Part shown: one piece after another, positions 50,679-60,829 of the stretch | How the letters are laid out: every line of letters begins with the position of its first letter | How positions within the stretch are numbered: the first letter of the stretch is position 1 | Assembly (NCBI GenBank): GCA_964649795.1 | Contig: CAZYQY010000002.1 | Location: 1 to 61,659 of the forward strand | DNA from: an uncultured Candidatus Saccharibacteria bacterium | GTDB taxonomy: Bacteria > Patescibacteriota > Minisyncoccia > Portnoybacterales > UBA2143 | Direction: 5' to 3' | Length of the DNA stretch: 61,659 nucleotides | The notes under the pieces: generated by a model | Told to the model about the DNA's origin: nothing | Seen by the model: only the letters and a program-made list of their open reading frames with translations | The model's database searches: none | Position numbers and translations under genes: made by a program

Positions 50679-50706
50679 TTGACTTTCTTTGACAATTTGA
50701 TATAAT
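50679..50706 (+). promoter_or_regulatory. Sigma70-type promoter of the second target-like gene
   Basis: TTGACT-16 nt-TATAAT. It is followed by a leader of about 160 nt. Confidence 0.5.
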
Positions 50707-50872
50707 GATAGCGTTATGATTAGTTCTTTTCAAATGCGGTTTAGAATACTATGAGGCAAGTATTTTGGATATCAAATTATTTGATTTCTGAAATACTTGT
50801 CTCATAAAGAGATAAGTCGTTAGTCCGAGCGATTCGGATAGAAAATCACAGAAAGGATAAAGGAGGTATGCC

Positions 50873-51646
50873 ATGGAAAGTATGGTGAGCCACACCCTGT
50901 CGGTGCACAACGAACACGAATTTTTACTGAAAATGGAGAAGGCGGGTCTTTCTGAAGAACTTGCCCAGAAGGTCATTGACTCAAATGGCAACGAACTCGC
51001 CCAAAAAGTAGTCAGATTCATTCAGAACGGCGGTTTTGAGCCGACAACCAGCCAGAAGCGCACTCGTGAAATCATAGGTCAGAATTTCTTCGGTGTCGAA
51101 GAGGCCATCCAGCATTTCGGAGTTAACCCAACCCGTCAGCAAACACTTGCTTTGTCGGAGGTTCCTTTTTCTGAAGAAGTACTTCAGAAGGCAAGGGATA
51201 CTCACGCTCTGATGGCGGTCTTCCCGCTTTCGATTCTCGAGATTCGCGGCAAGGTTGAGCGAAAGCTTTTTTACGGCTATGAAGATGCTTGGTATAACAA
51301 GCAAGCATTTGCCAAAGAGCGTGGTGAGACAAGCTGGCAACTGGTTCGCAAAACACCAGTGAACAATTCAACCTCGAAAAACTGGGAAGAGCAACAAGCT
51401 CTTATTTCGAAAGAGGACGAAGTCCCGACTCCCCAAGTGATGGTCTATACCATTATTGGTCATTACCTGGCTACTGGCGAGCGTCTGTTCGAGCACATTT
51501 ATGTCCGTACGTCATTTGTAGTTTCGGACGGCTTCCGCGTCTACGTCGGCAGCTTCGATTCGGATGGTCTCTCTGTCGGCAGCTACTGGGATGACCGCCG
51601 TGAGGGCGGCTTGGGCGTCTCGTCCGCTCGGAAGTTCCCCGCATAA
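50873..51646 (+). CDS. DGR-target-like protein paralog (no cognate TR found in this window)
   Basis: GC-rich 257-aa ORF with an aaaggagg SD. The C-terminus GFRVYVGSFDSDGLSVGSYWDDRREGGLGVSSARK parallels the VR segment of the 15714-16445 protein, including a similar ending (GSASCRS vs GVSSARK). Confidence 0.65.
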   Translation: MESMVSHTLSVHNEHEFLLKMEKAGLSEELAQKVIDSNGNELAQKVVRFIQNGGFEPTTSQKRTREIIGQNFFGVEEAIQHFGVNPTRQQTLALSEVPFSEEVLQKARDTHALMAVFPLSILEIRGKVERKLFYGYEDAWYNKQAFAKERGETSWQLVRKTPVNNSTSKNWEEQQALISKEDEVPTPQVMVYTIIGHYLATGERLFEHIYVRTSFVVSDGFRVYVGSFDSDGLSVGSYWDDRREGGLGVSSARKFPA

Positions 51647-51834
51647 ATCACGAAGTGATTTTGCGGGATAAATTGAATCCTGAACCCTTAAAATTTTGTT
51701 CCTTTTGATAACTTGAGCCTTCGGCGATATTTTCGTTGAGGGCTCTTTTCTTTCCCTAAGATTTCCTATAAAATATAAATGTCTGCTAATGAAGGTTGGA
51801 CCACGGTTTAACCTCGCGGACGTCTCATCTTTGA

Positions 51835-52032
51835 GATATCGCCAGAGTATCGTTGTTTACGGATAACGATAGCGTGCGACAAAAGATGGAGATTGAACTT
51901 CTTAAGGGAATAATCAGCCAAGAAATTCTTGAGCAATCGTTTCAGTCCTACATGGGCGTTCTTTCTCATGCTGATACTTATAAATTGGGACAGGAACTGA
52001 AAAATCAATTCTGGTTTTGGCTTAACAAATAG
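51835..52032 (+). pseudogene. Fossil C-terminal fragment of a second DGR-type reverse transcriptase
   Basis: The open frame translates to ...VRQKMEIELLKGIISQEILEQSFQSYMGVLSHADTYKLGQELKNQFWFWLNK*. This is collinear with the RT C-terminus LRQRVKEYKQEKIDEKTFLQSFNSYLGVLSHAKSYKFEQELKHKMWEWLKED*. No finger or palm motifs lie upstream. Confidence 0.6.
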
Positions 52033-53125: not shown

Positions 53126-53998
53126 TTATATCATATCAAATCTTTTTATCAAACTTCTGAATTCCAGATTTTCTAATAATTTAATTACTTTCTTTTTGTT
53201 ATAACTTCCCCATTTACACTTTTCTAAATCAAAATCAATAGGAATATCTTTTTTTATAGTAGCTAAGCGTCTGCTAAAAAATGCTTGTTCTTTGTATTCC
53301 AGCAATCTTGCTTTTAATTTTGGGTCTATATCATTTATTTCTATATCCTTATAAAGTTTTTCAATGCTGTTAAATTTTTCAATTAATTTAATAGCTGTTT
53401 TTTCGCCAATTCCAGGCACACCGGGTATATTGTCAGAAGCATCGCCTTTAAGTCCTTTTAAATCAATTATTTGTTCTGGTTTTAAATTATAGCGTTTTTT
53501 GACTGCTAATGTATTATAAATAATTATATCTTTAATCCCTTTTTTAGGAACATGAACTTCTGCCTTTTTATCAACTAATTGAAGCATGTCTAAATCACCA
53601 GTAATAATTATATTCTTTATTTCTGATTCTTTATTTCTCATTTTTGATACAATTGTCCCAATAATATCATCTGCTTCAAATCCTTTTTTTTCATAAATAG
53701 GAATTTCTAATGCTTTTACTACTTCTTTTATTTTAGGAATCTGGTCATATAATTCCTGCGGATGCTTAACTCTTTTAGCCTTATATTCTTTATATTCCAA
53801 ATCACGAAAAGTAGGTCCAGCCAAATCAAAAGTGGCAACTAAATAATCAGGCCCTAATTTTTGAATAACGCCCAAAAGAATGCTAATAAATCCATAAACA
53901 GCATTAACTAATTCTCCTTTTTTAGTTTTTAGAGGAGGCATAGCATGAAATGCGCGATGGATCAAAGCATTTCCGTCAATAATGACTAATTTTTCCAT
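53126..53998 (-). CDS. 5'-3' exonuclease (stand-alone Pol I N-terminal / FEN-like domain)
   Basis: LVIIDGNALIHRAFHA, the acidic clusters (ADDIIGT, TGDLDMLQL), and the H3TH motif GDASDNIPGVPGIGEKTA. Confidence 0.88.
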   Translation of the reverse strand: MEKLVIIDGNALIHRAFHAMPPLKTKKGELVNAVYGFISILLGVIQKLGPDYLVATFDLAGPTFRDLEYKEYKAKRVKHPQELYDQIPKIKEVVKALEIPIYEKKGFEADDIIGTIVSKMRNKESEIKNIIITGDLDMLQLVDKKAEVHVPKKGIKDIIIYNTLAVKKRYNLKPEQIIDLKGLKGDASDNIPGVPGIGEKTAIKLIEKFNSIEKLYKDIEINDIDPKLKARLLEYKEQAFFSRRLATIKKDIPIDFDLEKCKWGSYNKKKVIKLLENLEFRSLIKRFDMI

Positions 53999-54444
53999 TT
54001 GATTATAATCTCTCTTTTATTTTCATTAATATGATTAAACTTCATCCATATGGCATCTAATGGCAAGCTTTTTTTAATCCTTTCAGCCCATTCAATAACA
54101 ACTACATTTTTAGAATTATTAATGATTTCTTTGAAATCTAATTCATCTAAATCTTTTGGCCCAATTCTATAGCAATCAATGTGATAGAAACTTGAAACTT
54201 TTAATTTTAATATTTTATATTTTCTCAAAATAACAAATGTAGGACTGGTAATTTGCTCTTTAATTCTAAATCCTTTAGCCATTCCTTGAATAAAAGTTGT
54301 TTTGCCGCTGCCTAAATCGCCTTCCATACCAACAATTAATGCTTTTGTTTTTTCCGACTTGCTGTTAATTATCTCTTGAGCTAAAAATTTTCCTATTTTC
54401 TGTGTTTTTTGAGCGCTTTCAGTAATAATTTCCATATTGTTCAT
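53986..54444 (-). CDS. tsaE: tRNA t6A biosynthesis ATPase TsaE
   Basis: GDLGSGKTTF Walker A and the SPTF..L..Y motif. Confidence 0.88.
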   Translation of the reverse strand: MNNMEIITESAQKTQKIGKFLAQEIINSKSEKTKALIVGMEGDLGSGKTTFIQGMAKGFRIKEQITSPTFVILRKYKILKLKVSSFYHIDCYRIGPKDLDELDFKEIINNSKNVVVIEWAERIKKSLPLDAIWMKFNHINENKREIIIKWKN

Positions 54445-54609: not shown

Positions 54610-54945
54610 TTATAAATCAAAATGGATTCTTAAATAATCTTTAACTTGATCTATTGTATCTTTCTTTATAGCTCCAATTTGTTTAATAAAACGTGATCTA
54701 TCAAAAGACTGAATATGATGAACTTTTAATATTGAATCACAAAACAATCCATTCTGACTATCCTTAATTACTAAAATATCATCTTGAATTTTATTATTTG
54801 AATTTGAAGTAAGTGGAATTATTGTAAAAACAGAACTCTTTTTAATTTGAGAATTGGTTTCAATAATTAAAGCAGGTCGTTCTTTCTTATATTCGTGGCC
54901 AACTGAATTCAAAAATTTAACTAACCAAATTTCGCCTTGATTCAT
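54610..54945 (-). CDS. mazF: MazF/PemK-family type II toxin endoribonuclease
   Basis: GEIWLVKF....G.E..K.RPALII...IIPLTS pattern. Overlaps the upstream antitoxin gene by 4 nt. Confidence 0.8.
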   Translation of the reverse strand: MNQGEIWLVKFLNSVGHEYKKERPALIIETNSQIKKSSVFTIIPLTSNSNNKIQDDILVIKDSQNGLFCDSILKVHHIQSFDRSRFIKQIGAIKKDTIDQVKDYLRIHFDL

Positions 54946-55796
54946 AAATTCTTATAATAATTATATTCCTTATCCGACATCTCTCCTAAACTTTTAAGCG
55001 TATCTCCCGCAGCAACATCTTGCCATACTTGTTCATAATCAAATTGAGCATAGGGCAATTCACGATAAACTACTAAATCATAAGAAATAATTTCATTATC
55101 TTTAGTAGAATTCCATGGCGCATCTCCATGAACATATTCTTCAATTTGCCTAGCGCTCATATCTGACAAACGAGTAAGAACTTTATCAACTAATTCCTTT
55201 TCTTTTATTAAAAAACCATCCATTTTGTAATCCTTAAGAGCTATGTATCTTTTTTGAGTTCTTCCATAATAATCTTGATTAAAAATCTTTATTTCTTGAT
55301 TATTTCTCATATTTTGGACAACATGCTTATATTGTTTTATTTGCGGTATGGGCCCAAATTTCTGATGTATATAATTCATTCCTGTTATTGGTCTTCCCAA
55401 GGATTCATAAGCGTCAAAATCAATAAAATATAAGAGTTTATATAAAACTGTCTCTCCAAAATTCGGCTTACCGCCGCACTTTGATAAAATATACAAAATA
55501 AGTTCACGCAATTTCTCAGATTCAAATTTTATATCCTTGTTTGCATTTACTGCGCGTTTACTTTTAATAGAATCTTCAATTTCTACTTTTTTATTCTTAA
55601 GTAATTCATCAGCACTCAATTCAAATACTTTTGCCATCTTTACTAATTCTAAAGCGTCAATGCTGCGATTGCCTCTTTCAAGCTCTGATAATGCCGCGCG
55701 TGAAATGCCAATAAATTTTGCTAATTTTTCTTGACTAAATTCTCTTTCTTCGCGCAATTTTTTAATTTTTTGACCTAATTGTTTTTGTGTAAACAT
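54942..55796 (-). CDS. XRE-type HTH fused to a DUF4065 (Panacea/SocA-like) antitoxin domain
   Basis: The N-terminus LGQKIKKLREEREFSQEKLAKFIGISRAALSELERGNR is an XRE HTH. The C-terminal region KLRELILYILSK.GG...FGETVLYKLLYFIDFDAY...G.PITG..Y....FGPIP is DUF4065-like. Confidence 0.7.
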   Translation of the reverse strand: MFTQKQLGQKIKKLREEREFSQEKLAKFIGISRAALSELERGNRSIDALELVKMAKVFELSADELLKNKKVEIEDSIKSKRAVNANKDIKFESEKLRELILYILSKCGGKPNFGETVLYKLLYFIDFDAYESLGRPITGMNYIHQKFGPIPQIKQYKHVVQNMRNNQEIKIFNQDYYGRTQKRYIALKDYKMDGFLIKEKELVDKVLTRLSDMSARQIEEYVHGDAPWNSTKDNEIISYDLVVYRELPYAQFDYEQVWQDVAAGDTLKSLGEMSDKEYNYYKNL

Positions 55797-55830
55797 ATTT
55801 TTATTAATTTAAGTTATCCACACTACTTCT

Positions 55831-55860
55831 AGTATAACGTATTGATGGATTTACTGTCAA
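55831..55860 (-). promoter_or_regulatory. Candidate promoter of the antitoxin-toxin operon
   Basis: Minus strand reads TTGACA-18 nt-TATACT, about 35 nt upstream of the start codon. Confidence 0.4.
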
Positions 55861-55877
55861 TACCCCGCTGGATTTTC

Positions 55878-55906
55878 TTGACATTAAAGAACTATTTTAG
55901 TAAAAT
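55878..55906 (+). promoter_or_regulatory. Candidate promoter of the SNase-like gene
   Basis: TTGACA-17 nt-TAAAAT. It is followed by a leader of about 150 nt carrying two hairpins (aacaggg..ccctgtt and aatgtgt..acacatt). Confidence 0.45.
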
Positions 55907-56060
55907 GCAAGGATAAACCCAGAAATAAAACAGGGTCAACATAAAAGTCGAGCCCTGTTTGGAAATGTGTTAAGTCGATATCCTATACACATTAACCTTA
56001 CATTAACAGAATAGCATATTTTCAGTTTTTGGGAAATAAAAATTAACCGCTTTCAAATTT

Positions 56061-56330
56061 ATGCCAAAAGGTAAAGTAAAAGAAGTTGTTGACGGCGATA
56101 CTGTTAGATTGCCCTATAATAAATTCATTAGGCTATCTGGTGTTGACGCACCAGAAAAAAACCAAAAAGGAGGATCTGCTGCTACAAATGAACTTAAAAA
56201 ATTAGTTGAAGATAAAACTATCAGCTACACAGAAGATGCCCGATCGTATGGTCGTATAGTAGGGACAGTAAAGGTTGGAAGTAAAAACGTCAATAATGCA
56301 ATGAATAGTTTCATTAAAAAACAGAAATAA
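56061..56330 (+). CDS. Minimal staphylococcal-nuclease (SNase/thermonuclease)-like protein
   Basis: VVDGDTVRL, RLSGVDAPE and YGRIVG mirror the SNase Ca-binding and catalytic positions. The protein is only 89 aa. Confidence 0.6.
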   Translation: MPKGKVKEVVDGDTVRLPYNKFIRLSGVDAPEKNQKGGSAATNELKKLVEDKTISYTEDARSYGRIVGTVKVGSKNVNNAMNSFIKKQK

Positions 56331-56440: not shown

Positions 56441-56547
56441 GCAAGAAGCATCATTTTAAGGACAAGCCTCTTCGTAATTTGATTATACTACATTGACCAG
56501 GAAACTGAAATGAGATAAAATTAAAATAATTAGCTAAAAGAAACAAA

Positions 56548-59500
56548 ATGGATTTATCTAATAATAATGATACAGCTACTCCAAATAAAGAGAAAGAAAA
56601 AATTCTTGGCAAAAAGGAAAGTTCTCTTAAAAGTAAAGAAGATCTTGAAAAAAGATTAAGCAAAATAAAGCGTAATGAAGAAGAAGATAAGGCTAAGCAT
56701 TTGGGAGAAAAACTCAACCTCCCTTATGTTAATTTAGATTTAATACCAGTTGATTCTAATGATCTGAATATATTGGCAAAAGAAAAATCTGAAAAAGGAA
56801 ATATTTTAGTTATTAGAAAAATTGGGAAAAATCTTCAATTGGCTGTTAAAAATCCTGATGATTCTCAAACAAAAGAAATTATTAAAGAATTAGAAGATCA
56901 AGGATATAAATGTTCTTTAGTTATTGTTTCTTTAAGCGGTTTAAGAAAAAAAAGGCTTCGTTATGAATTAATTGCGACTAATCTTGTTTCTATAACAAGT
57001 GCTTTGGTTATCCAAGAAGAAGAACTAAAAGAATTTGAAAAATCATTACAGACAATCCAAGAACTGAAAAAGACAATTAATACTCTTTCAACGACTCGTC
57101 TCTTGAACATTATTATAGCTGGGGCTATTAAAATGGGGGCTTCTGATATTCATTTTGAACCAGGTAAGGAAAGTATTCGACTTCGCTATAGGATTGACGG
57201 GCTGCTTCAAGATATTACTGATTTTCCTGCTAATGCTTATAGATTTTCACTTTCCAGAATCAAAACTTTATCAGGCATGATTCTTAATGTTAATGAAATT
57301 TCCCAGGACGGCCGTTTTTCTGTTAAAATTATGAACAAAGGAAAATCTGTTAAAAACATTGACATAAGAGTTTCTATTTTGCCAAGCGGTTATGGAGAAA
57401 GCATTGTTATGCGTCTTTTAGGATTAGGGGCTATTGAATTAGATTTAATTGATTTAGGATTTGGACCGGAATTATTTGAAATAGTCAAAGGTCAGATTAC
57501 GCGACCAAACGGAATGGTTCTAACTACTGGACCAACTGGTTCAGGCAAAACCACTACTCTTTACGCATGTCTTAATAATGTTAATAAATCAAGCACTAAA
57601 ATCATTACTGTTGAAGATCCGATTGAGTATAGACTAAAAGGAATCACTCAAACTCAAATTAGCGAACGCAAAGGACAAACTTTTTTAAAAGCTCTTAAAA
57701 CTGTTGTTAGGCAAGACCCGGATATTTTAATGATTGGCGAAATTAGAGACGGAGAAAGCGCTAATATCGCCATTCAATCCGCTTTAACAGGGCACTTGGT
57801 ATTTTCCACTATTCATACTAATGACGCAGCTGGAGCTGTGCCTCGTTTAATAGAAATGGGAATTAAGCCATTTCTTATTCCAGCAGCCCTTAATTTGGTT
57901 ATTGCCCAGCGTTTAGTTAGACGGCTTTGTCCTTATTGCAAAGAATCTTACAAACCATCAGCTGAATTAATTAAAAGCACAAAAAAGATTTTCTCGCTGA
58001 TTTCGCCAAAATCAGGAATTGATATTCCTAAAAAACTATCTGTTTTTTATAAAGCTAAAGGATGTGAAAAATGCTATGGATTAGGATATCAAGGCAGAAT
58101 TGGCATTTTTGAATTGTTTACTGTTAATGATGCTATTGAAAAATTGATTCTTAAACAAGCCACCTCTTATGAGCTTAGAGCAAAAGCAATGGAAGAAGGC
58201 ATGCTTACATTAATGCAAGATGTAATGCTAAAAGTTGCTGAAGGGATAACAAGCATAGAGGAAGTTCAAAGAGTTATCGGCTCTCCTCAATATATTGAAC
58301 AGCTTTATGGCAGGGCAATTATGTCTATGCTTAGCCGGGCTCTGGTCATAGATGAGGAAATTTTCGAATGGTCTCAATCTATAACTCTAGGCGATAAAAA
58401 AATACAGGAAAAGATTAGTCAAGCCAGAATGGATGATTTAATAAAATGGATTATTGCTATTTCCTTAAAACTAAAAGCTACTGATATTCATTTTGAAGCA
58501 GAAGAAACAAGTCTCATAATAAGATTAAGAATAGACGGCTCTCTAGAAAAAGTAGCTGAAATTGCCAAAGAATTATTCCTGTCTACGGTAGCACAAATAA
58601 AAGAATTGGCTGGTATGGTAATTGACGTTCATAAAAAAGCCCAGGACGGAAGATTTAAAATAGAATGCCCTGATGAAAAAGTTTATGACACTAGAGTATC
58701 AGTTATCCCTAGTGGGTACGGAGAATCAATAATCATTCGCCTGCTTAGACCTGACATAGCTGTTCTTTCTTTAGAACAATTAGGAGTTCGTCCAGAATTA
58801 TTAAAAGATTTACAAAAAGTTATTAAATCGCCTAATGGAATTGTATTTGTAACTGGGCCGACTAGCGCTGGCAAAACAACTACTCTTTATTCTATCCTTA
58901 GCCAATTAAATAGGCCTGAGACAAAAATTTTCACAATTGAAGACCCTATTGAATATCGACTCTCCGGCATAATCCAAACTCAAATTGACAAAGAAGAAGG
59001 TTACACTTTTTTTGAAGCTTTAAGAGCCCTTCTTCGCCAAAACCCGAATATTATTATGCTTGGCGAAATTAGAGATTCAGAGACCGCGCAATCAGCTATT
59101 CAGGCCTCTCTTACCGGCCATTTAGTTTTAACCACCCTTCACACTAATAGCGCAGTTGAAGCTATACAGAGATTAACTAATCTTGATATCAAGATTGGAG
59201 ATATTAGTTCTTCAACTAAAGCTATTGTAGCCCAAAGATTAGTTAAAAAACTTTGTCCTTATTGCAGAAAGGAACAAAAAATTTCTCCTGAGACTTTGGA
59301 GAGAATAGAAAAAGAGCTAAAGCAAATGCCAGCTCTCTATCAAAAGCAAATTAAAGAAATAAAATTATATAAACCAGGTAAATGCGAGAAATGCAATCAA
59401 AGGGGATATAAAGGACAAATAGGTATCTTTGAAATATTAATCACTGACAAAGAGATAAAAAAGAGTATTCTTTCTTCAGCCAGTCCAGAACAGATAGAAG

Positions 59501-59613
59501 AACTGGCCAGAAGCAAAGGCATGCTCACGCTATATCAAGATGGTTTGCTTAAAGCAATTGAAGGAATAACTACTCTGGAAGAGATAGAAAGAGTAATAGG
59601 ACGAAGACCTTAA
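56548..59613 (+). CDS. pilB: Tandem-fused double PilB/GspE-type secretion/pilus assembly ATPase
   Basis: There are two complete modules. Module 1 has a T2SSE_N-like N-terminus, ASDIHFEP, GPTGSGKTTTLY, ITVEDPIEY, MIGEIRD, TGHLVFSTIHTND and CPYC..CEKC. Module 2 has ATDIHFEA, GPTSAGKTTTLY, FTIEDPIEY, MLGEIRD, TGHLVLTTLHTNS and CPYC..CEKC. Confidence 0.85.
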   Translation: MDLSNNNDTATPNKEKEKILGKKESSLKSKEDLEKRLSKIKRNEEEDKAKHLGEKLNLPYVNLDLIPVDSNDLNILAKEKSEKGNILVIRKIGKNLQLAVKNPDDSQTKEIIKELEDQGYKCSLVIVSLSGLRKKRLRYELIATNLVSITSALVIQEEELKEFEKSLQTIQELKKTINTLSTTRLLNIIIAGAIKMGASDIHFEPGKESIRLRYRIDGLLQDITDFPANAYRFSLSRIKTLSGMILNVNEISQDGRFSVKIMNKGKSVKNIDIRVSILPSGYGESIVMRLLGLGAIELDLIDLGFGPELFEIVKGQITRPNGMVLTTGPTGSGKTTTLYACLNNVNKSSTKIITVEDPIEYRLKGITQTQISERKGQTFLKALKTVVRQDPDILMIGEIRDGESANIAIQSALTGHLVFSTIHTNDAAGAVPRLIEMGIKPFLIPAALNLVIAQRLVRRLCPYCKESYKPSAELIKSTKKIFSLISPKSGIDIPKKLSVFYKAKGCEKCYGLGYQGRIGIFELFTVNDAIEKLILKQATSYELRAKAMEEGMLTLMQDVMLKVAEGITSIEEVQRVIGSPQYIEQLYGRAIMSMLSRALVIDEEIFEWSQSITLGDKKIQEKISQARMDDLIKWIIAISLKLKATDIHFEAEETSLIIRLRIDGSLEKVAEIAKELFLSTVAQIKELAGMVIDVHKKAQDGRFKIECPDEKVYDTRVSVIPSGYGESIIIRLLRPDIAVLSLEQLGVRPELLKDLQKVIKSPNGIVFVTGPTSAGKTTTLYSILSQLNRPETKIFTIEDPIEYRLSGIIQTQIDKEEGYTFFEALRALLRQNPNIIMLGEIRDSETAQSAIQASLTGHLVLTTLHTNSAVEAIQRLTNLDIKIGDISSSTKAIVAQRLVKKLCPYCRKEQKISPETLERIEKELKQMPALYQKQIKEIKLYKPGKCEKCNQRGYKGQIGIFEILITDKEIKKSILSSASPEQIEELARSKGMLTLYQDGLLKAIEGITTLEEIERVIGRRP

Positions 59614-59815: not shown

Positions 59816-60829
59816 ATGTCAAGCATAATTACTGAACAAAAAAAATCTGAAGATAATTATTTAGATTCAACTCTTCGCCCTCATTCTTTTCAAGAATATG
59901 TGGGGCAGCAAAAAATTAAAGATAATCTTCAAATTTTAATACAAGCAGCCAAGAAAAGAAAGGAATCAATTGACCATATCTTATTATATGGCAGCGCTGG
60001 TCTCGGTAAAACGACTTTAGCCCATATTATTGCCAAAGAAATGGGAAATAGTATTAAAATAACTTCTGGCCCAGCTATTGAAAAAGTAGGTGATTTAGCT
60101 TCTATCCTGACCAATTTACAAAATGGCGATGTTCTTTTTATAGATGAATTCCATCGGCTTAACAGGACCATTGAAGAAACATTGTATCCAGCAATGGAAG
60201 ATTTTGTTTTGGATATTGTTATTGGCAAAGGCCCTTCAGCTCGGACTCTACAATTAGAACTGCCTCGTTTTACATTAATTGGCGCCACTACTCGCATTGG
60301 CATGCTTTCTTCTCCTTTGCGCAGCAGATTTGGGGCAACTTATCGTCTGGACTTCTATGACCAAGAAGATATAGAAAAAATTATTAATCGGTCAGCTCAA
60401 ATATTAAAGACAGATATTGAACCAATAGCTATTCAAACAATAGCTAAATGCTCGCGCTATACCCCCCGTGTAGCTAATCGTCTGTTAAAAAGAACTCGTG
60501 ACTATGCTCAAGTTAAAGCTGATGGTCTAATTAACCAAAAATTATCTCAAGAAGCATTAAAAATGCTTGAAATAGACGAGCTTGGGCTAGAATTGGCTGA
60601 CAGGCATATTTTGGAAACTATTATCCAAAAATTCAATGGCGGACCAGTAGGTTTGCAAACTCTGGCAGCAGCTACGAATGAAGAAACTGATACTATTCAA
60701 GAAATCTACGAGCCTTATTTGCTTCGTTTAGGTTTTTTGGCCCGCACGCCTAAAGGCCGCATGGCTGCTAAATTAGCCTATGACCATCTGGGTCTGAAAT
60801 ATGATACTGAAGAAAATAAACTATTTTGA
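59816..60829 (+). CDS. ruvB: Holliday junction branch migration helicase RuvB
   Basis: [32 protein letters not shown] and [15 protein letters not shown] motifs. Confidence 0.96.

What the first reader, a model, noticed from the sequence alone, without database searches (positions are those of the whole stretch)
56548..59613. Two complete PilB/GspE ATPase modules fused in one 1021-aa polypeptide
Secretion and type IV pilus assembly ATPases are normally about 500-600 aa and act as homohexamers. This ORF contains two full catalytic modules in tandem.

The first module follows a T2SSE_N-like N-terminal domain. Its motifs are ASDIHFEP, Walker A GPTGSGKTTTLY (about 57529), Asp box ITVEDPIEY, Walker B ILMIGEIRD, His box TGHLVFSTIHTND and the tetracysteine CPYC...CEKC.

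From about residue 576 (nt 58273) there is a second set: ATDIHFEA, GPTSAGKTTTLY (about 58855), FTIEDPIEY, IIMLGEIRD, TGHLVLTTLHTNS and CPYC...CEKC.

Both halves look catalytically competent and have diverged from each other, so this is not a recent assembly duplication. A covalent dimer would build the hexamer from three chains and hard-wire the alternating two-fold asymmetry seen in PilB-type hexamers. No other pilus genes are adjacent; ruvB follows.
Basis: partly seen in the sequence, partly recalled or inferred. Interest (0 to 1): 0.6.

Follow-up and report, generated by a model that had tools for sequence, protein, structure and literature searches.

The report
Natural tandem double PilB motor ATPase
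One intact gene of an ultra-small (Patescibacteria) bacterium encodes two complete, apparently active copies of the motor ATPase that builds type IV pili; the fusion is real, old, conserved in about an eighth of the species of one bacterial class, and I found no paper describing it, so it is a natural "covalent dimer" for testing how these six-unit ring motors fire.

Summary
ORF 56548-59613 (+) is an uninterrupted 1021-aa frame. It holds an MshEN-type N-terminal domain and two full T2SSE (PilB/GspE) modules that are 43% identical to each other.

- **Catalysis.** Every catalytic residue defined for Geobacter PilB is invariant or nearly so in both modules across 120 homologues. Both modules are under purifying selection (dN/dS 0.15 and 0.08).
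- **Not an artefact.** A 97%-identical copy lies on three independent assemblies.
- **Distribution.** The architecture occurs in 49 of 401 sampled genomes of the window's class (at least 17 families), but in only 2 of 400 drawn across the phylum.
- **Origin.** All second modules form one clade and the two module trees mirror each other, so there was one ancient duplication-fusion. Module number later changed: some relatives lost module 2, and one protein has three modules with a recombinant middle one.
- **Context.** The gene sits in a conserved TsaE-[pilB*]-RuvB slot, away from pilus genes. It is a third extension-type ATPase in a genome with only two PilC platforms.

A ring made of three double chains is the likeliest assembly, but it is inferred only; the AlphaFold runs were inconclusive. 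I found no published description. It is a new variant of a known kind.

The parts
56493..56521 (+). Promoter-like site TTGACC-17-TAAAAT, ending 26 nt upstream of the start codon
   Evidence: Consensus scan. The number of such sites in the region is no higher than in shuffles, so this is only suggestive.
56548..59613 (+). Tandem PilB-type ATPase gene, 1021 aa, one uninterrupted frame
   Evidence: Two T2SSE stretches in Pfam and NCBIfam. Full-length homologues of 41-97% identity.
56629..56964 (+). N1D, the MshEN/T2SSE_N-type N-terminal domain (residues about 28-139). It is present only once, ahead of module 1.
   Evidence: Pfam MshEN PF05157 at residues 56-132, 25.0 bits against a cut-off of 23.1. 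AF2 pLDDT is about 90 for 40-140. No RLGxx c-di-GMP motif is visible in residues 1-60 (one search read against the motif in PMC5013675).
57094..57420 (+). Module 1 N2D (residues about 183-291), with arginine fingers R274 and R289
   Evidence: Alignment to G. metallireducens PilB 5TSG. R274 and R289 are invariant in 120 homologues and correspond to R271 and R286 of PMC5424180.
57445..58281 (+). Module 1 CTD (residues 300-578): Walker A 328-335 (nt 57529-57552), Asp-box E360, catalytic E398, pore E403, His box H416/H423, and Zn site C461/C464/C506/C509
   Evidence: All are invariant or at least 90% conserved.
58282..58437 (+). Inter-module linker (residues 579-630). It is conserved (consensus GxFLEELYEKII..., Y587 and L595 at least 90%) and homologous to the N1D-N2D connector of module 1 (residues 140-185).
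   Evidence: Conservation profile and near-invariant columns. BLAST aligns 140-198 with 585-644. AF2 pLDDT is 55-63 for 581-600.
58438..58746 (+). Module 2 N2D (residues about 631-733), with R702, R716 and R731 invariant. Several residues that are invariant in module 1 are changed family-wide in module 2.
   Evidence: Module 1 to module 2 consensus changes: R237 to variable, N247 to D, Q253 to K, G255 to S, P279 to L. The window's own module 2 still reads QDGRF.
58780..59601 (+). Module 2 CTD (residues 745-1018): Walker A GPTSAGKT 770-777 (nt 58855-58878), E802, catalytic E840, pore E845, H858/H865, and Zn site C903/C906/C946/C949
   Evidence: All are invariant or at least 90% conserved. Walker A variants across the family still fit GxxxxGK[ST].
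59816..60829 (+). ruvB, the conserved downstream neighbour of the slot
   Evidence: Pfam RuvB_N, AAA_lid_4 and RuvB_C. It is adjacent to the slot PilB in 18 relatives and in distant tandem carriers L032 and L033.
53986..54444 (-). tsaE, the conserved upstream neighbour of the slot. In the window it is separated from pilB* by an inserted toxin-antitoxin/nuclease islet at 54610-56330.
   Evidence: Pfam TsaE. Synteny in relatives. The 97%-identical relative L121 has tsaE directly next to the tandem gene.

Best explanation
**What it is.** This is a genuine single-chain tandem of two PilB/GspE-type assembly ATPase units. The layout is N1D(MshEN)-N2D-CTD, then a conserved linker of about 50 aa, then N2D-CTD.

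**Shown here.**
- It arose once, by duplication and fusion, within one class of Patescibacteria, and has been inherited as one gene since.
- Module number has later changed by recombination or deletion.
- Both modules keep every residue needed to bind and hydrolyse ATP, to sense the neighbour's nucleotide (arginine fingers, His box) and to line the pore.
- It is the occupant of a conserved tsaE-[pilB*]-ruvB slot.
- It is a third extension-type ATPase beside two ordinary pilus gene sets. The genome has only two PilC platforms.

**Inferred.**
- Three chains assemble into one six-module ring in which modules 1 and 2 alternate. The ring then has only three N1D domains.
- The ring docks on a PilC-type platform and drives type IV filament assembly like PilB does.
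- The alternation makes the ring three-fold at best. It would either run the usual rotary cycle with non-equivalent sites or use an alternating C3-type cycle.
For: **Real and intact.**. The same frame occurs in three independent assemblies of a 97%-identical relative.

**Conserved.**
- 118 of the 120 listed homologue clusters carry two Walker A motifs.
- 49 of 401 genomes of the class, in at least 17 families.
- 11 of 59 genomes of the order.

**Both modules look active.**
- The residues of G. metallireducens PilB named in PMC5424180 are T327, E357, E395, E400, T411, H413, H420, R271 and R286.
- They map to T330/T772, E360/E802, E398/E840, E403/E845, T414/T856, H416/H858, H423/H865, R274/R716 and R289/R731.
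- All of these are invariant or at least 90% conserved.
- The tetracysteine site is invariant in both modules.
- dN/dS against the 97% relative is 0.15 for module 1 and 0.08 for module 2.

**Single origin.** All module 2 sequences form one clade (SH-aLRT 99-100). The module 1 and module 2 subtrees have the same groupings.

**PilB kind.**
- The best solved relatives are PilB 5TSG/5TSH/6OLJ, 5ZFR and PilF.
- Foldseek TM-scores normalised to the target are up to 0.91.
- The PilB equivalog TIGR02538 scores 896 bits against a cut-off of 676.

**Ring of three.**
- PilB-type ATPases work as hexamers whose unit is the N2D of one chain packed on the CTD of the next (PMC5424180).
- The linker is conserved in sequence and length.
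- Both pore glutamates are kept.
Against: - The quaternary structure was not tested. AF2 gave pTM 0.52 for the full chain and 0.65 for CTD1-linker-N2D2. The second value is about what one large rigid domain alone would give. No coordinates, PAE or multimer run were available.
- No pilus gene is adjacent. The genome has two PilC for three extension-type ATPases, so the partner platform is unknown.
- Most relatives manage with a single-module protein in the same slot, so the second module is dispensable over evolutionary time.
- Module 2 evolves somewhat faster (mean pairwise identity 56% against 63%). Its N2D has lost several residues that are invariant in module 1.
Confidence: 0.6

Rival explanations
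1. **Stacked double ring.** Six chains form a hexamer with a module 1 ring on top of a module 2 ring, as in tandem ATPases such as KaiC, p97 or ClpB. That gives twelve ATPase modules per particle.
For: - Other tandem-duplicated ring ATPases use this solution (general knowledge).
- The linker of about 50 residues is long enough.
- AF2 does not fix the module arrangement.
- The triple-module P0021 is awkward for a closed six-module ring made of whole chains, though two such chains could make one.
Against: - PilB-type rings are held together by N2D packing on the neighbour's CTD, and they present one face and the pore to the platform (PMC5424180). A second ring would be shielded from PilC.
- Both modules keep the pore glutamate (E403, E845). 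That is expected if both line the same working pore.
Confidence: 0.15
2. **Division of labour.** Only one module turns over ATP at a useful rate. The other is mainly a nucleotide-binding or structural partner, as in F1 alpha3beta3 or Pex1/Pex6-type alternating rings.
For: - Module 2's N2D has systematic changes at positions that are invariant in module 1: R237, N247, Q253, G255 and P279. D390 becomes N in the RQDPD motif.
- Conversely, R256 (R257 of Geobacter PilB, which salt-bridges the Asp-box Glu) is below 90% conserved in module 1 but invariant in module 2 as R702.
- The unrelated tandem P0137 has a degenerate first Walker A, GSGTT. That shows such specialisation can evolve.
Against: In this family the Walker A lysine, Asp-box Glu, catalytic Glu, both His-box histidines and both arginine fingers are invariant in both modules. 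dN/dS is low in both.
Confidence: 0.15
3. **Artefact.** Two adjacent pilB genes were joined by a sequencing or assembly error that removed a stop or shifted the frame.
For: - Adjacent unfused PilB pairs do exist in other phyla (L078, L084).
- Reads could not be inspected.
Against: - The same open frame is found in three independent assemblies of a near-identical strain.
- It is also found in 48 other genomes of the class and in nearly all of the 120 listed protein clusters.
- The junction peptide is conserved.
- Module 2 lacks its own N1D and start region.
Confidence: 0.01
4. **Not a pilus-extension motor.** The slot ATPase, tandem or single, serves another type IV filament-like task tied to DNA uptake and recombination, which would explain its conserved position beside ruvB. 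This concerns the function only, so it can hold together with any of the assembly models above.
For: - The pilB*-ruvB adjacency holds across families whose proteins are only 43-47% identical.
- YebC and RuvC lie further downstream in L121.
- There is no dedicated PilC.
- Type IV pili and competence genes are both described as widespread in CPR (PMC6744442).
Against: - Adjacency alone is weak evidence in tiny, gene-dense genomes. tsaE and a 5'-3' exonuclease are equally conserved neighbours on the other side.
- The protein scores best with PilB and GspE models.
Confidence: 0.15

Closest known systems
PilB, the type IVa pilus extension ATPase (Geobacter metallireducens 5TSG/5TSH/6OLJ; G. sulfurreducens 5ZFR; Myxococcus 3JC8)
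   Same: - Each module aligns over N2D plus CTD at 42-44% identity. Foldseek TM-scores normalised to the target are up to 0.91.
- Walker A, Asp box, atypical Walker B with the catalytic Glu, His box, two arginine fingers, the pore Glu and the tetracysteine Zn site are all kept.
- An N1D of the MshEN/T2SSE_N type precedes module 1.
   Different: - One chain carries two ATPase modules; PilB carries one.
- Only one N1D serves two modules.
- The gene is not next to pilC, pilM or pilins.
- It coexists with two ordinary PilB genes in the same genome.
GspE, the type II secretion ATPase (Vibrio 1P9R, 4KSR/4KSS, 4PHT)
   Same: It belongs to the same PilB/GspE clade, with the same motifs and Zn site. 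The GspE equivalog TIGR02533 scores 887 bits against a cut-off of 630.
   Different: - No type II secretion genes were seen around the T2SSE genes examined. The organism belongs to a group reported to lack the outer-membrane secretin PilQ (PMC6744442).
- Hexamers of GspE were obtained by artificial fusion to Hcp1 (4KSR title). Here the covalent link is natural and joins two ATPase modules.
PilF of Thermus thermophilus (5IT5, 5OIU, 6EJF, 6F8L)
   Same: It is a long PilB-type protein (6F8L chain of 913 residues) with repeated domains and a single hexameric ring.
   Different: From general knowledge, PilF repeats its N-terminal MshEN/GSPII domain and has one ATPase module. Here it is the ATPase module (N2D plus CTD) that is repeated.
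PilT4 in the C3 'OCOCOC' conformation (6OK2, 6OJY, 6OJZ)
   Same: It shows that PilT-like rings can adopt an alternating three-fold state (entry titles). That is the symmetry a ring of three tandem chains would impose.
   Different: - PilT is a retraction ATPase with no Zn site and no N1D.
- Its alternation is conformational among identical subunits. It is not encoded in the sequence.
Alternating hetero-hexameric P-loop rings (F1 alpha3beta3, Pex1/Pex6, Rvb1/Rvb2) and tandem ATPases (KaiC, p97)
   Same: They also arose by duplication of a ring ATPase subunit followed by divergence of the two copies. This comparison rests on general knowledge.
   Different: - They belong to different ATPase families.
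- In the alternating rings the partners are usually separate chains.
- In KaiC and p97 the two modules form stacked rings.
- Which of these geometries applies here is untested.

Membership tests
PilB/GspE clade of PilT-like secretion ATPases (Pfam T2SSE PF00437; NCBIfam TIGR02538/TIGR02533) | T2SSE domain scoring above the curated cut-off | tested here: met
   PF00437 scores 753.6 bits against a cut-off of 24.9, in two stretches. TIGR02538 scores 896.5 against 675.65 and TIGR02533 scores 887.2 against 630.25. These are whole-protein scores summed over two modules. Each module alone scores 387 and 373 bits against PF00437.
PilB/GspE clade of PilT-like secretion ATPases | Walker A, Asp-box Glu, catalytic Glu of the atypical Walker B, His-box histidines and two arginine fingers (the conserved set of PMC5424180) | tested here: met
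   All are present in both modules of the window protein. All are invariant or at least 90% conserved in both modules across 120 homologues.
PilB/GspE clade of PilT-like secretion ATPases | Tetracysteine zinc-binding motif. It separates PilB/GspE from PilT/PilU and FlaI (PMC5424180). | tested here: met
   C461/C464/C506/C509 and C903/C906/C946/C949 are all invariant.
PilB/GspE clade of PilT-like secretion ATPases | One ATPase module (N2D plus CTD) per chain, assembling as a homohexamer | tested here: not met
   There are two modules per chain. The oligomeric state is not testable with these tools.
PilB as the dedicated extension motor of a type IV pilus gene set | Encoded with, or functionally tied to, PilC, PilM/N/O and pilins | tested here: not met
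   The neighbours are tsaE, a 5'-3' exonuclease, a toxin-antitoxin islet and ruvB. The genome's pilus genes lie on other contigs: C6 (HK-RR-PilB-PilC-pilins), C31 (PilO-?-PilB), C33 (pilin-RR-PilT) and C25 (PilC). A functional tie is untested.
MshE-type c-di-GMP-binding ATPases (MshEN receptor; PMC5013675) | Tandem 24-residue motif RLGxx(L/V/I)(L/V/I)xxG(L/V/I)(L/V/I)xxxxLxxxLxxQ at the N-terminus | tested here: not met
   Residues 1-60 contain no RLG motif (read directly). The Pfam MshEN match covers residues 56-132 only.
PilT/PilU retraction ATPases (TIGR01420) | A short protein of about 350 aa with no N1D and no Zn site, and a score above the subfamily cut-off for a single module | tested here: not met
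   TIGR01420 scores 327.9 bits only when summed over two modules, against a cut-off of 319.1. The Zn site and N1D are present. The genome has its own 358-aa PilT on C33.

The most novel reading that the evidence does not exclude
The tandem protein forms an obligate ring of three chains in which module 1 and module 2 sites are functionally non-equivalent. One would be specialised for catalysis or thrust and the other for nucleotide sensing or platform contact. If so, a PilB-type motor can drive filament assembly with a three-fold alternating cycle instead of the two-fold rotary cycle deduced from homohexamers. Three N1D domains per ring would also be enough to dock the motor.
Probability: 0.3. 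Interest if true: 0.75.

Novelty: new variant of a known kind. Interest (0 to 1): 0.55.

Why it matters
**Motor mechanism.** How PilB/GspE/PilT-type hexamers couple ATP turnover around the ring to rotation of the platform protein is still argued from crystal and cryo-EM snapshots of identical subunits (C2, C3 and C6 states). Experimenters normally have to engineer concatenated subunits to place a mutation in defined ring positions. This family does that naturally.
- A mutation can be placed in every second site of the ring.
- The ring would carry only three N1D domains.
- Evolution has already marked which positions tolerate divergence in one module but not the other.

**Biology of CPR bacteria.** Type IV pili are thought to be central to how these bacteria attach to hosts and take up DNA. 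The findings here show:
- a third, orphan extension-type ATPase in a conserved slot beside ruvB;
- module number in that slot that varies between one, two and three by recombination.

Tried and rejected
- **Inter-module geometry.** The AF2 full-length model has pTM 0.52 and the CTD1-linker-N2D2 construct has pTM 0.65. No coordinates or PAE are returned, and Foldseek aligns only one module per PDB chain. The arrangement stays open.
- **Chimera hypothesis for the second group of single-module slot proteins (L017-L019, L027, L024, L025).** A sliding comparison against the module 1 and module 2 profiles showed no clear switch. They cluster with other CPR singles, not with module 1 or module 2. Their relation to the tandem is unresolved.
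- **Apparent module 2 remnants.**
  - The 743-754-aa frames in G010 and G454 turned out to carry Lys/Glu-rich low-complexity tails, not remnants.
  - The HMMER alignments of G009 and G450, which read through stops to residue 612, were not examined beyond tblastn. tblastn of G009 (L023) ended at residue 579.
- **Rooting the module tree with the genome's PilT.** This gave a very long branch and an unreliable root inside module 1. I therefore claim only unrooted statements: module 2 is monophyletic, the two subtrees are congruent, and the five singles are nested.
- **The search for related loci with the family alignment.** Only 1 of 80 loci was a tandem.
- **Literature.** Seven full-text searches found no description of a two-module PilB/GspE. 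The library does not cover most subscription journals.
Full report
**1. The observation**

The frame 56548-59613 (+) is open for 1021 codons. Pfam finds MshEN at residues 56-132 and two T2SSE stretches. The NCBIfam PilB and GspE equivalogs match in two stretches. Residues 140-578 align with 585-1018 at 43% identity (E 3e-121). ruvB follows at 59816-60829. The upstream genes are on the other strand: a toxin-antitoxin/nuclease islet, tsaE, a 5'-3' exonuclease and a DUF3048 gene. A promoter-like TTGACC-17-TAAAAT lies 26 nt upstream of the ATG, but such sites are no more frequent here than in shuffles.

**2. It is not an artefact**

- A 97%-identical, 1021-aa protein (P0002) is encoded on three separately assembled contigs from JGI, ENA and Logan. 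The gene order there is tsaE-tandem-ruvB.
- The protein search returned 120 clusters of 939-1460 aa that cover 90-100% of the query at 41-97% identity.
- 118 of them have exactly two Walker A motifs. One has three and one has a single match.
- The junction peptide is itself conserved: consensus GxFLEELYEKII, with Y587 and L595 at least 90% conserved.

**3. Both modules look catalytically competent**

The closest solved protein is Geobacter metallireducens PilB, 5TSG. The chain numbering of that entry is the native numbering plus 20. With that offset, the residues that PMC5424180 names map as follows.

| Role (Geobacter residue) | Module 1 | Module 2 |
|---|---|---|
| Walker A contact, T327 | T330 | T772 |
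| Asp-box Glu, E357 | E360 | E802 |
| Catalytic Glu, E395 | E398 | E840 |
| Pore Glu, E400 | E403 | E845 |
| T411 | T414 | T856 |
| His box, H413 | H416 | H858 |
| His box, H420 | H423 | H865 |
| Arginine finger, R271 | R274 | R716 |
| Arginine finger, R286 | R289 | R731 |

- All of these, the Walker A lysines (K334, K776) and all eight cysteines are invariant or at least 90% conserved in 120 homologues.
- Against the 97% relative, dN/dS is 0.15 for module 1 and 0.08 for module 2 (the counts are small).
- Module 2 is the more derived copy. Mean pairwise identity is 56% among module 2 sequences and 63% among module 1 sequences.
- Several residues invariant in module 1 are changed family-wide in module 2: R237, N247 to D, Q253 to K, G255 to S, P279 to L, D390 to N and L443 to D.
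- Conversely, R256 is below 90% conserved in module 1, while its module 2 counterpart R702 is invariant.

**4. Origin and evolution**

In trees of the N2D plus CTD region, all module 2 sequences form one clade (SH-aLRT 99-100). The module 1 and module 2 subtrees show the same groupings. That pattern fits one ancient duplication-fusion followed by co-inheritance.

The 1460-aa protein P0021 has three modules.
- Its middle module is 63.5% identical to module 3 in the first quarter but 61% identical to module 1 in the last quarter.
- It is therefore a recombinant left by unequal crossing-over between modules.
- The parts have since diverged, so it is not an assembly error.

Five single-module proteins from the window's own family sit in the same slot. 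They are sister to that family's tandem module 1 sequences (100) and are nested among module 1 sequences of other families. The simplest reading is that they lost module 2. A second group of slot singles clusters with other CPR single PilBs, and their history is unresolved.

**5. Distribution**

| Sample | Genomes with the tandem |
|---|---|
| Phylum, drawn evenly (excluding the window's genome) | 2 of 400, both in the window's class |
| The window's order | 11 of 59 (three families; one copy cut by a contig end) |
| The window's class | 49 of 401 (at least 17 family codes) |

- Of 80 loci fetched from all bacterial and archaeal species, only one carried a fused tandem. It is a Candidatus Moraniibacteriota genome.
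- In the 50%-identity library of 1.84 billion representatives, about 14 clusters are full tandems. By comparison, 15,896 proteins match at E no higher than 1e-30.
- Source names for the tandems include Parcubacteria, Patescibacteria group and Moranbacteria.

**6. Genomic setting**

The window's genome is 572 kb in 36 contigs and is 98.8% complete. Besides the tandem it holds:
- a 592-aa PilB within a histidine kinase-receiver-PilB-PilC-pilins operon (C6);
- a second PilB next to PilO, cut off by a contig end (C31);
- a pilin-receiver-PilT set (C33);
- a second PilC (C25).

So there are three extension-type ATPases, one PilT and two platforms.

The order exonuclease-tsaE-[PilB*]-ruvB is conserved in 18 relatives. 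It holds whether the slot contains a tandem or a single. ruvB is also adjacent in distant tandem carriers (L032, L033) but not in L031. The relatives examined carry the same complement: paralogue A, paralogue B, the slot gene and PilT. The tandem is therefore a variant of the slot gene and not an extra system.

**7. How it probably works**

PilB-type ATPases act as hexamers made of "packing units", in which the N2D of one chain is bound to the CTD of the next (PMC5424180). The most economical reading is a ring of three chains in which the modules alternate. Both pore glutamates would face one pore, and the ring would carry three N1D domains where a normal hexamer has six.

This is inference.
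- AF2 gives confident domains (mean pLDDT 87.9) but pTM 0.52 for the chain.
- pTM is 0.65 for CTD1-linker-N2D2, which does not establish packing.
- Foldseek matches each module to PilB, PilF and GspE chains with target-normalised TM-scores up to 0.91.

A stacked double ring and a catalytic/non-catalytic division of labour remain possible. An ABABAB ring is three-fold, whereas PilB's C2 cycle has period three (PMC5424180). The alternating C3 state is known for PilT4 (entry titles).

**8. Novelty**

Seven full-text searches found no description of a two-module PilB/GspE. The main survey of CPR pilus genes lumps PilB and PilT into one family and does not mention a fusion (PMC6744442). Database names are generic, for example "GspE/PulE family protein".

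Earlier notes of this scan describe the same family in other genomes and reach the same reading. They are not independent evidence.
- the conserved slot, and the tandem/single polymorphism within it;
- the monophyly of module 2;
- the recombinant triple-module protein;
- the module-specific substitutions;
- the frequency figures.

**Verdict:** real, conserved, apparently undescribed, and a new variant of a known kind.

Noticed in passing
P0021 (1460-aa homologue from a 77-kb JGI contig; not in the window): A three-module version of the same protein. The middle module is a hybrid: its N-terminal part is module-2-like and its C-terminal part is module-1-like. This indicates unequal crossing-over between modules.
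   Followed up: partly
L015:2227-5160 (+) (G012, same family as the window's genome): One 977-aa frame joins an ordinary PilB (MshEN plus T2SSE) to a full PilC (two T2SSF repeats). In the window's genome these are adjacent separate genes on contig C6. It could be a real motor-platform fusion or a lost stop codon in one MAG.
   Followed up: no
P0137 (1047 aa, from the 50% representative library): An unrelated-looking tandem from an unidentified source. It has two T2SSF-like repeats followed by two T2SSE modules. The first Walker A is degenerate (GPTGSGTT, no lysine). It may be an independent tandem with one inactive module.
   Followed up: no
L078:3908-7336 and L084:2746-6179: Two full-length PilB genes lie head to tail, unfused, in an Omnitrophota MAG and in an uncultured bacterium (574+566 aa and 570+573 aa). 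This resembles a possible pre-fusion state.
   Followed up: no
L028:1878-4121 (-) and L029:1897-4110 (-) (G010, G454): Single-module slot PilBs carry C-terminal tails of about 180 aa that are very rich in Lys and Glu. The tails start right after the conserved RVIGSP end of module 1.
   Followed up: partly
window 54610-56330, compared with L121:3479-4001: The toxin-antitoxin plus small-nuclease islet between tsaE and the tandem gene is absent from the 97%-identical relative. There tsaE ends 72 nt before the pilB* start, so the islet is a recent insertion into the slot's upstream spacer.
   Followed up: partly
L121:147-1550, compared with window about 50679-52032: The near-identical relative has bAvd plus an intact 349-aa reverse transcriptase (a DGR) upstream of the DUF3048 gene.
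   Followed up: no
L017, L018, L019, L027 (family f1) and L024, L025: A second kind of single-module PilB occupies the same tsaE-ruvB slot, partly in the same family. It groups with neither module 1 nor module 2 of the tandems. It may reflect in-situ replacement or an older lineage.
   Followed up: partly
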